Sequence record: OQ101257.1
Strand: one strand, 5' to 3'
Source of the DNA: Acinetobacter phage Acba_15
Length of the DNA stretch: 60,424 bases
Positions 53,964 through 55,920 of the stretch are shown here, in pieces. The translations under genes and the position numbers were made by a program. How positions within the stretch are numbered: the stretch's first letter is position 1; every line of letters begins with the position of its first letter. The notes under the pieces were generated by a model, which saw only the letters and a list, made by a program, of their open reading frames with translations, ran no database searches and was not told the origin of the DNA.

Positions 53964-54257
53964 CATTTTGTACCAACTACCTAAGGTTGGCCAAAGCAGC
54001 TGCAGTATTTGGCCAACTTCTCGATATTAATTTAAGTTATTGAAAAATAGTAACTAGAGAAAAAATAACATTTATGTTTGATTGGCATTTTGTATCAAAA
54101 AATAGAAGAGTAATTAAAATAGCCTTTTTCTTCTGAGAATAATTTTGCGCAAAAATATCAATATTAAGCAAATATGAGCATAAATTTGCGCAATACACTT
54201 AACTTACTTGAACGATGGATTGATGTATCATTATTAAAATTACTTTGAATTATTGTT

Positions 54258-54452
54258 ATGTCTTCACAGTTAATCAAAATTCATTATCATGCATATTCTC
54301 GCGTTGCAGATCTATTAGCAGATCTAGATAAGAAAGGAGAGGTCACTAAAATTTATGACCTCAATGGCAACGAATTAAAAATTAATTTCTTGCGTGACGA
54401 AGTTTATTATAAAAAAGTCTGGTGGCATTTTCAGAAGAAGCAAGGCGGTTAA
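54258..54452 (+). CDS. Hypothetical protein of 64 aa.
   Basis: ORF only. It overlaps the 3' end of int. Confidence 0.2.
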   Translation: MSSQLIKIHYHAYSRVADLLADLDKKGEVTKIYDLNGNELKINFLRDEVYYKKVWWHFQKKQGG

Positions 54453-55645
54453 ACCGCCCAGCTATCCACAATATTAGCCCAGTCCTGTAGCATTTTTCGC
54501 CTGCTTTCTAAATATTTGGCATGGTTATATGTGGCCCTAGTTTTATTACCATCTGCATGCGCTAATTGTTTTTCAATCCATTTGTCATCGTAATCCTTTT
54601 CATTTAACAAGGTTGATGCAGTGGCACGAAAGTCATGAGCAGTGACATCAGACAAGCCAATGTAATCGAGCATTTTATTCATTGTAGTAGCGGAGAGCAT
54701 CCCATCTTGATAGATGGCTGGAAAAACATATTCACGATTACCTACAATGTTGCGCTGTTCTTGAAGAATATTAAAAACTTGGTCAGACATAGGAACGATA
54801 TGAATACGTTTCTTTTTCATCATCTCTTTTGGGAATGTAATTGTTCTAGCTTCAAAATCAACATATTCCCATTTCATGCGGCGGATCTCGATAGTCCTGA
54901 GCATAGAGTAGAGCATTACAAGGCCAGCATTTTTAACTGTAGTAGATCCACCATAGCTATTTAATTTATTTCTAAGTTGCACAGCCTCATATTTTTCCAT
55001 GGGTCTGGCATGTTCTATTTCGGGACGTTCTACAACGTTTTTAACGGCATAGGTTGGATCATAGTCGGCTCTAAGTGTGGCGATTGCATAACGCATTACG
55101 CCGCCAATAAAAGTACGATTTTGAATTGCTGACACTTCGCCAGTACCATGGTTTTTTTGACGCTTAACTCGTGTAATCGTCTTTTTCATAATAGTCAAAA
55201 CGTCTGCTGAGGTGACTTCTTTAATATCCTTATCACCAATAACTTTTAAAATATCTTTATCTAAGGCGCGTTGAAAAGCTTCTTGATACCTTTCTGAACG
55301 ATTATTTAATTTTTCTGCTTTATATTCTGCAGCAACATGTTTAAAGAGAACCCTATTGTCATACTCATCAGATTTAGCCTTTTTTTGGTTTTCTTTTTCT
55401 TCAACTGGATTTATACCGCTTGCAACTAAAGATTTAGCTTCATCTCTTTTAGTACGGGCTTCAGCTAATCCCACAATAGGGTATTCACCTAAGCTCATCA
55501 TTTGTGTTTTTTTGAGCCATTGAAAACGATAGCGCCAATACTTCTTGCCATTAGGTTTTATTTCAACACACAAACCATCGGAATCACCAAGCCTATAAAG
55601 CTTTTCTTTCGGTTTTGCACTTCTAATTTTTGAGTCACTTAACAT
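54449..55645 (-). CDS. int: Tyrosine integrase, P4-like with an N-terminal arm-binding domain.
   Basis: C-terminal catalytic region HDFRATAST...LAHADGNKTRATYNH. N-terminal DUF4102-like segment LYRLGDSDGLCVEIKPNGKKYWRYRF. Confidence 0.85.
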   Translation of the reverse strand: MLSDSKIRSAKPKEKLYRLGDSDGLCVEIKPNGKKYWRYRFQWLKKTQMMSLGEYPIVGLAEARTKRDEAKSLVASGINPVEEKENQKKAKSDEYDNRVLFKHVAAEYKAEKLNNRSERYQEAFQRALDKDILKVIGDKDIKEVTSADVLTIMKKTITRVKRQKNHGTGEVSAIQNRTFIGGVMRYAIATLRADYDPTYAVKNVVERPEIEHARPMEKYEAVQLRNKLNSYGGSTTVKNAGLVMLYSMLRTIEIRRMKWEYVDFEARTITFPKEMMKKKRIHIVPMSDQVFNILQEQRNIVGNREYVFPAIYQDGMLSATTMNKMLDYIGLSDVTAHDFRATASTLLNEKDYDDKWIEKQLAHADGNKTRATYNHAKYLESRRKMLQDWANIVDSWAV

Positions 55646-55649
55646 GAAA

Positions 55650-55920
55650 TCTTGAGTATCCGGTTATGATTTTTAGGGTCATACTCAAAATGATACTCAA
55701 GATTGGTGATTTTGCATAGTTTGCTTAGATTTGCCTAGATTTGTAATTTTAATAAATTTCAATAATTTGTGATTTTCAAAATTTTGCTAGATTTTTTTAG
55801 ATTTGTTCAATACTTCTTTTCGATCATTAGAAGCATTTTAGATTCAACTCACTAATATATAAAGGGATTTTATTTTGGGGTGATTTTGATACTCAATTTG
55901 GTACTCAATATTGAAAAAGT
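55650..55920. promoter_or_regulatory. Repeat-rich non-coding region upstream of int. Candidate attP arm sites and/or int regulatory region.
   Basis: Symmetric arrangement: two ATACTCAA, then two TAGATTTG, an AT-rich centre, two TAGATTT, then two (G/A)TACTCAA. Confidence 0.35.

What the first reader, a model, noticed from the sequence alone, without database searches (positions are those of the whole stretch)
53964..55920. Integrase and candidate attP lie internally, so the genome order is circularly permuted relative to an integrated lambdoid prophage
The gene order is repressor, replication, late genes, lysis, int, then the leftward early genes. This matches a vegetative or circular map, not attL-int...J-attR. 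Either the window is an unintegrated or episomal phage contig, or the window ends are artificial.

Two candidate att regions flank int. The first, 53964..54448, holds an inverted repeat TTGGCCAAAGCAGCTGCAGTATTTGGCCAA and two TTGCGCAA palindromes. The second, 55650..55920, holds symmetric arrays of ATACTCAA and TAGATTTG direct repeats around an AT-rich centre, which looks like integrase arm sites.
Basis: partly seen in the sequence, partly recalled or inferred. Interest (0 to 1): 0.55.

Follow-up and report, generated by a model that had tools for sequence, protein, structure and literature searches.

The report
Phage attachment site targeting host trpG
The window is a complete, unintegrated Acinetobacter temperate phage genome whose real attachment site lies between its excisionase and integrase genes and targets the first 17 bases of the host trpG gene, which is ordinary phage biology, now mapped precisely.

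Summary
The window is a whole Vieuvirus-like Acinetobacter siphophage genome, cut at an arbitrary point. Its two ends are contiguous in relatives and it carries no host flanks. An internal int/attP is therefore what any excised temperate phage shows.

The second candidate (55650-55920) is the true attP. In the integrated relative Ab105-3phi and many other lysogens, homology to the window breaks on both sides of a 17-bp core, TCGATCATTAGAAGCAT (55820-55836). Empty attB sites occur in seven Acinetobacter genomes. The core is the reverse complement of the first 17 bases, from the ATG, of host trpG/pabA, not a tRNA or tmRNA.

Five RTACTCAA repeats sit at -168 (inverted), -139, -127, +69 and +81 from the core. 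Diverged integrases (60% and 46% identity) keep this geometry with a different motif, as expected of arm-type Int sites. The TAGATTTG repeats form two 10-bp-phased clusters between arm sites and core, and are probably excisionase sites.

attP lies between xis and int, so the two genes end up at opposite prophage ends, as in KplE1.

The first candidate (53964-54448) is not att. It is an optional cargo cassette with a conserved 64-aa ORF, absent from about half of the closest int-bearing relatives (38 of 80 with no match, 3 more with only a partial match).

Ordinary; low interest.

The parts
54449..55645 (-). Tyrosine integrase, 398 aa, with an N-terminal arm-binding domain
   Evidence: Pfam hits are Arm-DNA-bind_3 (residues 2-86, 8.8e-25), Phage_int_M (101-202) and Phage_integrase (217-378). 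It also matches phrog_1 integrase at 7e-72.
55648..55913 (.). Whole attP: P arm, core and P' arm. It fills the xis-int intergenic region.
   Evidence: Homology to the window breaks on both sides of the core in the integrated prophage Ab105-3phi, in 11 IMG/VR loci and in 7 genome loci.
55652..55659 (-). Arm-type site P1 (TTGAGTAT on the + strand), an inverted copy at -168 from the core
   Evidence: The same position holds CGGGTAA in L077 and GTGAGTAA in L050, each matching that module's own motif.
55681..55700 (+). Arm-type sites P2 and P3 (ATACTCAAAATGATACTCAA), direct copies at -139 and -127
   Evidence: L077 has TTACCCG at -140 and -128. L050 has TTACTCAC at -139 and -127.
55726..55743 (+). 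TAGATTTG x2, 10-bp phased (-94, -84): candidate excisionase (RDF) sites
   Evidence: L077 has GAACT repeats at -101, -91 and -81 in the equivalent place.
55744..55787 (.). 86% A+T spacer between the two TAGATT clusters. It holds weak IHF-like matches and a weak promoter-like match for int on the minus strand (ATCACA-16-TAAAAT, 55773 to 55746).
   Evidence: The promoter and IHF matches are not above chance.
55788..55805 (+). TAGATTTT and TAGATTTG (-32, -22): second candidate RDF cluster
   Evidence: L077 has GAACT at -38 and -28.
55813..55819 (+). Proposed left core-type Int site C (CTTCTTT)
   Evidence: TCTTT next to the core is invariant in all P arms, including those with Int at 60% and 46% identity. 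It forms an imperfect inverted repeat with TTAGAAG. The assignment is inferred.
55820..55836 (+). 17-bp core identity TCGATCATTAGAAGCAT shared with attB. Its reverse complement is ATGCTTCTAATGATCGA, the first 17 bases (from the ATG) of host trpG (MLLMID). The proposed 7-bp overlap is TCGATCA (55820-55826) and the proposed C' site is TTAGAAG (55827-55833).
   Evidence: The core occurs once in the window. It is duplicated at both Ab105-3phi junctions. Empty attB sites were found in L011, L016, L047, L076, L081, L082 and L083. The overlap and C' assignments are inferred.
55837..55880 (-). Core-proximal P' sequence, which becomes the 5' leader of trpG in a lysogen. It keeps a GAG(T) Shine-Dalgarno-like element 11 nt before the ATG and resembles host trpG leaders.
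   Evidence: The window scores 10 against a shuffle mean of 2.9 (maximum 11). Relatives L050 and L012 score 25 and 21 against shuffle maxima of 12 and 14.
55889..55908 (+). Arm-type sites P'1 and P'2 (ATACTCAATTTGGTACTCAA) at +69 and +81
   Evidence: They are conserved in every P' arm down to 76% relatives. L050 has TTACTCAC at +70 and +82.
55944..55963 (-). Intrinsic-terminator-like hairpin at the end of xis
   Evidence: The hairpin is conserved or compensated in the P' alignment.
55951..56220 (-). Excisionase/RDF candidate, 89 aa
   Evidence: It matches phrog_9834 'excisionase and transcriptional regulator' at 1.7e-40. There is no Pfam, NCBIfam or PDB match.
53964..54448 (+). First candidate region. 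It is not att but an optional cargo cassette. It holds a hairpin (53987-54016), two TTGCGCAA palindromes (54145, 54186) and a 64-aa ORF (54258-54452).
   Evidence: It is 100% identical in 39 IMG/VR loci. Of the other 41, 38 gave no hit and 3 matched only part of it (none upstream of 54134), although Int is at least 95% identical in all 80 loci. Ab105-3phi has other genes there, and L007 has about 200 bp. The ORF matches phrog_4432 and has 96 Acinetobacter-only homologues.
54443..54459 (.). GC hairpin between the convergent 64-aa ORF and int, a terminator candidate

Best explanation
The window is a complete, excised and circularly closed genome of a Vieuvirus-like temperate siphophage of Acinetobacter, linearised at an arbitrary point. 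An internal int/attP is therefore the expected vegetative map.

The attachment site (shown):
- The functional attP is the 266-bp xis-int intergenic region (55648-55913).
- A P4/IntS-type heterobivalent tyrosine integrase recombines the 17-bp core TCGATCATTAGAAGCAT (55820-55836) with the identical sequence at the first 17 bases (from the ATG) of the host glutamine amidotransferase gene trpG/pabA.

How recombination probably works (inferred):
- Strand exchange probably occurs in the 7-bp TCGATCA, at the left edge of the identity block. It is flanked by imperfect inverted core-type sites, CTTCTTT and TTAGAAG.
- The Int N-terminal domain probably binds the five RTACTCAA arm sites, three in the P arm and two in the P' arm.
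- The 89-aa Xis probably binds the two 10-bp-phased TAGATTTG clusters between the P-arm sites and the core, to direct excision.

Consequences of the layout:
- attP lies between xis and int, so integration puts int at one prophage end and xis at the other. This is shown in Ab105-3phi.
- int must then have its own promoter inside the P arm, overlapping the Int and Xis sites, as in KplE1 (inferred).
- The trpG coding sequence stays intact after integration (shown). Its native upstream region is replaced by the P' arm, which carries a host-like leader (inferred function).

The first candidate region is an unrelated accessory cassette.
For: Completeness:
- Joining the window's end to its start aligns gap-free to Acba_3.
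- Relatives show the same or contiguous ends.
- No tRNA or host genes are present.

Junctions in Ab105-3phi:
- The int side reads phage ...ACTTCTTT[core]GATGAACTTAACC... host.
- The xis side reads host ...GTCGTAATTG[core]TTTGGATTCAAC... phage.

Other occupied and empty sites:
- Seven empty attB sites read host-left + core + host-right.
- Seven trpG+core+P' junctions occur in other Acinetobacter genomes.
- Eleven P+core+host junctions occur in IMG/VR.
- 66 of 80 IMG/VR loci did not reach the core. In most of these the locus begins at the int start.

Host gene: it matches TIGR00566 trpG_papA at 272.9 bits against a cutoff of 121.

Int domains: Arm-DNA-bind_3, Phage_int_M and Phage_integrase.

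Arm sites:
- They are enriched about 200-fold locally.
- Their geometry is kept while the motif changes in all copies of L077 (Int 60% identical; arm-binding domain 46.5% against 63-66% for the rest) and of L050 (Int 46%).

Xis: it matches phrog_9834.

Region 1: it is dispensable in relatives that use the same attB.

KplE1 paradigm: PMC2951348.
Against: - No binding or recombination was measured.
- The overlap region and the core-type sites are inferred from symmetry and from the edge of the identity block.
- Assigning TAGATTTG to Xis rather than to Int or a host factor rests on position and on covariation in a single diverged module (L077).
- The promoter-like matches for int and for trpG are no more frequent than in shuffled sequence (12 found, 8.6 expected).
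- The IHF-like matches are weak.
- Xis has no detectable similarity to any solved structure.
Confidence: 0.9

Rival explanations
1. The first candidate (53964-54448), with its hairpin and TTGCGCAA palindromes, is the attP or a second att site.
For: The palindromic 8-mers are clustered (4 of 10 window-wide TTGSSCAA matches in 207 bp). The region lies next to the 3' end of int.
Against: - No prophage junction maps there. In Ab105-3phi homology starts only at 54456 and other genes occupy the place.
- The upstream part with the hairpin is missing from 41 of 80 loci, and 38 of those have no match to the region at all. All 80 loci carry an Int at least 95% identical. Eight of those 41 reach the core, and six of them are integrated at trpG.
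- The palindromes are not conserved in the 81% relative L137.
- The region holds a conserved 64-aa coding ORF.
Confidence: 0.02
2. The window is an integrated prophage, or two adjacent elements, with host flanks lying just outside the window.
For: Nothing specific. The possibility arises only because the origin of the window is not given.
Against: - The window's end and start are contiguous in Acba_3, Acba_13 and Acba_23.
- The window has an intact P-core-P' site rather than hybrid attL/attR sites.
- Every part of the window examined matches phage genes.
Confidence: 0.03
3. The P-core-P' arrangement is the internal junction of two tandem prophages in a chromosome, not a free phage.
For: Chromosomal P-core-P' junctions exist. 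A. seifertii NIPH 973 has a trpG+core+P' site (L036) and a P+core+P' site (L007) on one contig. L160 and L136 are further examples.
Against: The window contains exactly one genome equivalent with joined ends and a single core copy. Near-identical sequences are deposited as virion genomes from induced or isolated phages.
Confidence: 0.05

Closest known systems
Phage lambda Int/Xis/attP (heterobivalent tyrosine integrase with arm-type and core-type sites)
   Same: - Int has a separate N-terminal arm-binding domain and a C-terminal catalytic domain.
- Arm-type repeats lie on both sides of a short core shared with attB.
- Direct repeats for a second protein sit between the P-arm sites and the core, where lambda has X1 and X2.
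- attP is internal in the vegetative map.
   Different: - The gene order is xis-attP-int, not attP-int-xis, so int and xis separate on integration.
- The arm-binding domain is the P4/IntS type (PF13356), not the lambda type.
- attB lies inside the 5' end of a coding gene rather than in the gal-bio intergenic region.
- No sib-type arrangement is possible.
KplE1 / HK620 / Sf6 IntS-TorI recombination module (Panis et al. 2010, PMC2951348)
   Same: The att region lies upstream of int. The int promoter must therefore overlap the recombination arm, and int and the RDF gene are transcriptionally uncoupled at opposite prophage ends. Int is of the same broad P4-like class (NCBIfam PRK09692 domain hit at 217.6 bits, below its 434-bit cutoff).
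   Different: - The target is the 5' end of trpG, not the 3' end of tRNA argW.
- Xis shows no detectable sequence similarity to any solved structure.
- Negative autoregulation is not shown here.
Published Acinetobacter Vieuvirus phages (Acba_3/4/11/14/16, vB_AbaS_Gln/SA1, YMC11/11/R3177, Ab105-3phi)
   Same: They are 98.4-100% identical over 53600-56300, with int and the excisionase annotated. Ab105-3phi is the integrated form at the same attB.
   Different: These records annotate no attP, core or arm sites. The Vieuvirus phage Phi19606 described in PMC8914354 maps next to ssrS, so it uses another integration module.

Membership tests
Heterobivalent (lambda/P4-type) tyrosine-integrase attP | Integrase with a tyrosine-recombinase catalytic domain | tested here: met
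   PF00589, residues 217-378, E=1.7e-22. The catalytic residues were not inspected individually.
Heterobivalent (lambda/P4-type) tyrosine-integrase attP | Separate N-terminal arm-DNA-binding domain | tested here: met
   PF13356 Arm-DNA-bind_3, residues 2-86, E=8.8e-25.
Heterobivalent (lambda/P4-type) tyrosine-integrase attP | Short core identical in attP and attB and duplicated at both prophage ends | tested here: met
   The 17-bp core is present at both Ab105-3phi junctions and in seven empty attB sites.
Heterobivalent (lambda/P4-type) tyrosine-integrase attP | Arm-type repeats on both arms, unrelated in sequence to the core and specific to the integrase | tested here: met
   Five RTACTCAA sites are present. 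Modules with 60% and 46% identical Int keep the positions with a changed motif.
Heterobivalent (lambda/P4-type) tyrosine-integrase attP | Int-dependent attP x attB recombination and Xis-dependent excision | not testable with these tools
   This needs in vivo or in vitro recombination assays.
KplE1/IntS-TorI-type module organisation | att lies between int and the RDF gene, so the two genes sit at opposite prophage ends | tested here: met
   The window order is xis (55951-56220), attP, int (54449-55645). In Ab105-3phi the xis homologue is at record 15042-15311 and int at 58690-59886.
KplE1/IntS-TorI-type module organisation | int promoter overlaps the Int and RDF binding sites (negative autoregulation) | tested here: inconclusive
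   Only a 9-of-12 promoter-like match was found (55773 to 55746, minus strand). The count of such matches is not above shuffles.
KplE1/IntS-TorI-type module organisation | attB in a tRNA gene (argW) | tested here: not met
   attB is the 5' end of trpG. ARAGORN finds no tRNA in the window.
   There are no tRNA or tmRNA genes in the window and no Rfam hit at attP. The core is the start of a TIGR00566 gene.
Genus Vieuvirus | Genome-wide nucleotide similarity to classified members | tested here: inconclusive
   Only three window segments, totalling about 13 kb, were searched. Identity to vB_AbaS_Gln (GenBank taxonomy: Vieuvirus) is 98.4% over 53600-56300. Whole-genome identity was not computed.

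The most novel reading that the evidence does not exclude
Integration swaps the regulatory regions of a host gene and a phage gene. The native trpG upstream region, now followed by a 9-codon remnant ORF (MLLMIEKKY*), would read into the P arm and int. The phage P' arm would supply a surrogate leader and promoter for trpG. The candidate promoter is TTGAGT-18-TAAAAT, whose -35 element is the P'1 Int arm site. Lysogeny would then rewire expression of a tryptophan/folate-pathway amidotransferase and could couple int expression to host trpG regulation.
Probability: 0.2. Interest if true: 0.45.

Novelty: new member of a known kind. Interest (0 to 1): 0.18.

Why it matters
Mostly housekeeping value.
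- It fixes the attP, core and attB of a very common family of A. baumannii prophages. That allows exact prophage delimitation, PCR assays for lysogeny and excision, and possible use of the Int/attP pair as an Acinetobacter integration tool.
- It corrects the expectation that the target is a tRNA.
- The covarying arm sites give a clean natural example of integrase and arm-site co-evolution at a fixed core.
- The replacement of the trpG leader raises a small testable question about lysogenic effects on host metabolism.

Tried and rejected
- **tRNA/tmRNA search:** ARAGORN found none in the window.
- **Rfam scan of 53700-56300:** it gave only sub-threshold noise.
- **Region 1 as att:** rejected.
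- **Left junction of Ab105-3phi:** I first looked next to trpD and found nothing. The record carries extra host DNA, and the true junction is at trpG.
- **Literature searches:** searches for a published trpG attB in Acinetobacter found no description. Phi19606 maps next to ssrS and the fEg-Aba01 phages use a 22-bp site, so both use other sites. This library is incomplete, so the site may be published elsewhere.
- **PDB sequence search with Xis:** no meaningful hit.
- **Promoter and terminator scan:** promoter-like matches are not above the shuffle expectation, and none was found in the host trpG upstream region.
- **IHF consensus:** only one-mismatch matches were found, 3 against about 0.7 expected.
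- **Function of the 64-aa ORF:** no Pfam or NCBIfam family matched, only an unnamed PHROG.

Full report
**What the window is.** The region 53600-56300 is 100% identical to the Acinetobacter phages Acba_3, 4, 11, 14, 16 and 18. It is 98.4% identical to vB_AbaS_Gln and SA1, which GenBank classifies as Vieuvirus.

- An RM-type methyltransferase (76-2358, minus strand) and a CI-type S24/HTH repressor (2707-3510, minus strand).
- Rightward, two O-like initiators and a DnaB-like helicase.
- Terminase, portal, capsid, tape measure and a 3489-aa tail protein.
- A GH108 endolysin (53282-53824).
- int (54449-55645, minus strand), xis (55951-56220, minus strand) and the leftward early genes.

The window ends are artificial:
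- A construct joining window 58925-60424 to 1-1500 aligns across the joint, without gaps and at 99.9%, to Acba_3.
- The Aclw_8 record starts and ends at the same bases.
- Acba_13 and Acba_23 carry the window's end next to its start.
- There is no terminal redundancy, no tRNA and no host gene.

The window is therefore one complete excised phage genome. An internal int/attP is simply the vegetative map, as in lambda.

**Where attP really is.** Ab105-3phi (KT588073) is a prophage record that includes host flanks.
- On the int side, homology to the window runs through the P arm and stops at window 55836. The junction reads ...TTCAATACTTCTTT[TCGATCATTAGAAGCAT]GATGAACTTAACC... and host DNA follows.
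- At the other prophage end the junction reads ...GTCGTAATTG[TCGATCATTAGAAGCAT]TTTGGATTCAAC.... It continues at 98% identity into the P' arm and xis.
- The shared 17-mer lies at window 55820-55836 and occurs once in the window.
- Its reverse complement, ATGCTTCTAATGATCGA, is the start (MLLMID) of a 194-aa host gene. That gene matches TIGR00566 trpG_papA at 272.9 bits against a cutoff of 121.

A scan of one genome per species for the 17-mer gave the following after classification of the flanks:
- Seven empty attB sites (trpG, core, native leader GATGAACTTAACCTCATG). They come from A. geminorum, A. calcoaceticus (two), A. nosocomialis, A. pittii (two) and Acinetobacter sp. WC-141.
- Seven trpG+core+P' junctions in other lysogens.

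Among 80 IMG/VR loci encoding this integrase:
- In most, the locus begins at the int start, and 66 did not reach the core.
- Of the 14 that reach the core, 11 are P+core+host junctions and 3 are P+core+P'.

**Anatomy of attP.** Int has an Arm-DNA-bind_3 domain (residues 2-86), a central domain and a catalytic domain.

- **RTACTCAA sites.** These lie at 55652 (inverted), 55681, 55693, 55889 and 55901. Relative to the core they are at -168, -139, -127, +69 and +81. Five of 13 window-wide matches fall in 257 bp, where about 0.03 is expected.
- **Comparative test.** This is the strongest evidence.
  - L077 has an Int 60% identical overall. Its arm-binding domain is only 46.5% identical, against 63-66% for the other domains. 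It uses the same core but carries TTACCCG at -166 (inverted), -140 and -128.
  - L050 has an Int 46% identical and carries TTACTCAC at -165 (inverted), -139, -127, +70 and +82.
  - Fixed geometry with a concerted change of motif is what arm-type Int sites predict.
- **TAGATTTG-type repeats.** These form two 10-bp-phased pairs at -94/-84 and -32/-22, with a weaker copy at +19. L077 has GAACT repeats at -101, -91, -81, -38 and -28. By position they are most likely sites for the 89-aa Xis (phrog_9834). This is inferred.
- **AT-rich centre.** It is not the crossover point and has only weak IHF-like matches.
- **Core-type sites.** TCTTT immediately left of the core is invariant in all P arms. CTTCTTT, TCGATCA and TTAGAAG form an imperfect inverted repeat around a 7-bp centre that starts exactly where attP-attB identity starts. 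I propose this as C, overlap and C'. This is inferred.

**Module layout.** attP lies between xis and int, so integration places them at opposite prophage ends. This is seen in Ab105-3phi.
- This is the organisation described for KplE1, HK620 and Sf6, not that of lambda. There the int promoter overlaps the att arm and int is repressed by Int and the RDF (PMC2951348).
- Here only a weak promoter-like match exists in the P arm, so autoregulation is untested.

**Consequences for the host gene.** The trpG coding sequence is preserved, but its upstream region is replaced by the P' arm.
- The core-proximal P' sequence keeps a GAG(T)-type Shine-Dalgarno-like element 11 nt before the ATG. Host leaders have GAGG at that position.
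- In relatives this sequence is clearly homologous to host trpG leaders. L050 scores 25 and L012 scores 21, against shuffle maxima of 12 and 14.
- The window's own copy is only marginal, at 10 against a shuffle mean of 2.9 and maximum of 11.
- These phages therefore seem to carry a surrogate trpG leader, much as tRNA-targeting phages carry a tRNA 3' end.
- On the other side, the native trpG upstream region would read through a 9-codon remnant (MLLMIEKKY*) towards int.
- Whether either arrangement matters is unknown.

**The first candidate region.** Its motifs are real and clustered, but it is not att.
- No junction maps there.
- Ab105-3phi has other genes in its place, and A. seifertii has about 200 bp there.
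- It is 100% identical in 39 IMG/VR loci. Of the other 41, 38 gave no hit and 3 matched only part of it, none upstream of 54134. Int is at least 95% identical in all 80 loci.
- Eight of those 41 loci reach the core, and six of them are integrated at trpG.
- It contains a 64-aa ORF (54258-54452). The ORF matches phrog_4432 and has 96 Acinetobacter-only homologues down to 57% identity. Substitutions relative to the 81% relative L137 are frequent at third codon positions.
- The TTGCGCAA palindromes are not conserved in that 81% relative.
- It is best read as an optional cargo (moron-like) cassette of unknown function in the variable slot between the lysis genes and int.

**Verdict.** It is wrong about the first region, the position of the core and the kind of target.

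The system is a standard heterobivalent tyrosine-integrase module with a KplE1-like layout. I found no paper describing the trpG attB, but the searched library is incomplete and the prophages themselves are public. Interest is low.

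Noticed in passing
window 59856-60174, inside ORF 59615-60403 (minus strand): There are 21 tandem copies of a 15-bp unit. They encode a pentapeptide-repeat tract (ANLSY/ADLRD...) in a 262-aa early-left protein. The repeat explains the 16-20 BLAST 'places' per record. The copy number appears to differ between relatives.
   Followed up: partly
L002 (OP291336.1, Acinetobacter phage AIIMS-AbE5-RC) 4001-4324; window 55644-55967: This record is classified as a lytic Friunavirus. 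Its first 324 bp are 99.7% identical to this temperate phage's xis-int intergenic region, including the attP described here. It is probably an assembly chimera with host prophage DNA, but this was not checked.
   Followed up: partly
L007 and L036 (A. seifertii NIPH 973, contig NZ_KB851200.1): One chromosome has both a trpG+core+P' junction and a P+core+P' junction, which suggests tandem elements at the same attB. The int next to the latter junction is split by a roughly 1.5-kb insertion encoding a 444-aa transposase-like ORF.
   Followed up: partly
window 41264-51733 (+ strand): A single 3489-aa tail ORF has a central-fibre-J-like N-terminus followed by long tail-protein or spike-like segments. 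The corresponding gene in Ab105-3phi and vB_AbaS_Gln is about 1150 aa. G+C here rises to 0.43-0.46, against about 0.39 elsewhere.
   Followed up: no
window 4345-5238 and 7613-8356 (+ strand): Two separate O-like replication-initiator genes (both match phrog_270) lie in the early-right region, with a leftward 260-aa ORF (5899-6681) between them. This may be a mosaic insertion.
   Followed up: no
window 53826-53963 (+ strand): A 45-aa ORF directly after the endolysin has a lipobox-like LLSGC motif, so it may be a spanin or lipoprotein. It has no Pfam or PHROG match.
   Followed up: no
L050 (contig JAFAFU010000061.1, labelled as a Bacillota MAG): This contig carries an intact attP for the Acinetobacter trpG site, an Int 46% identical to the window's, and a 45-bp leader closely matching the trpG leader of A. 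portensis. The bin label is probably wrong.
   Followed up: partly
window 76-2358 (minus strand): A low-G+C (0.32) 760-aa N6-methyltransferase / HsdR-N fusion sits next to the repressor gene. Relatives annotate it as restriction-modification or anti-restriction.
   Followed up: no
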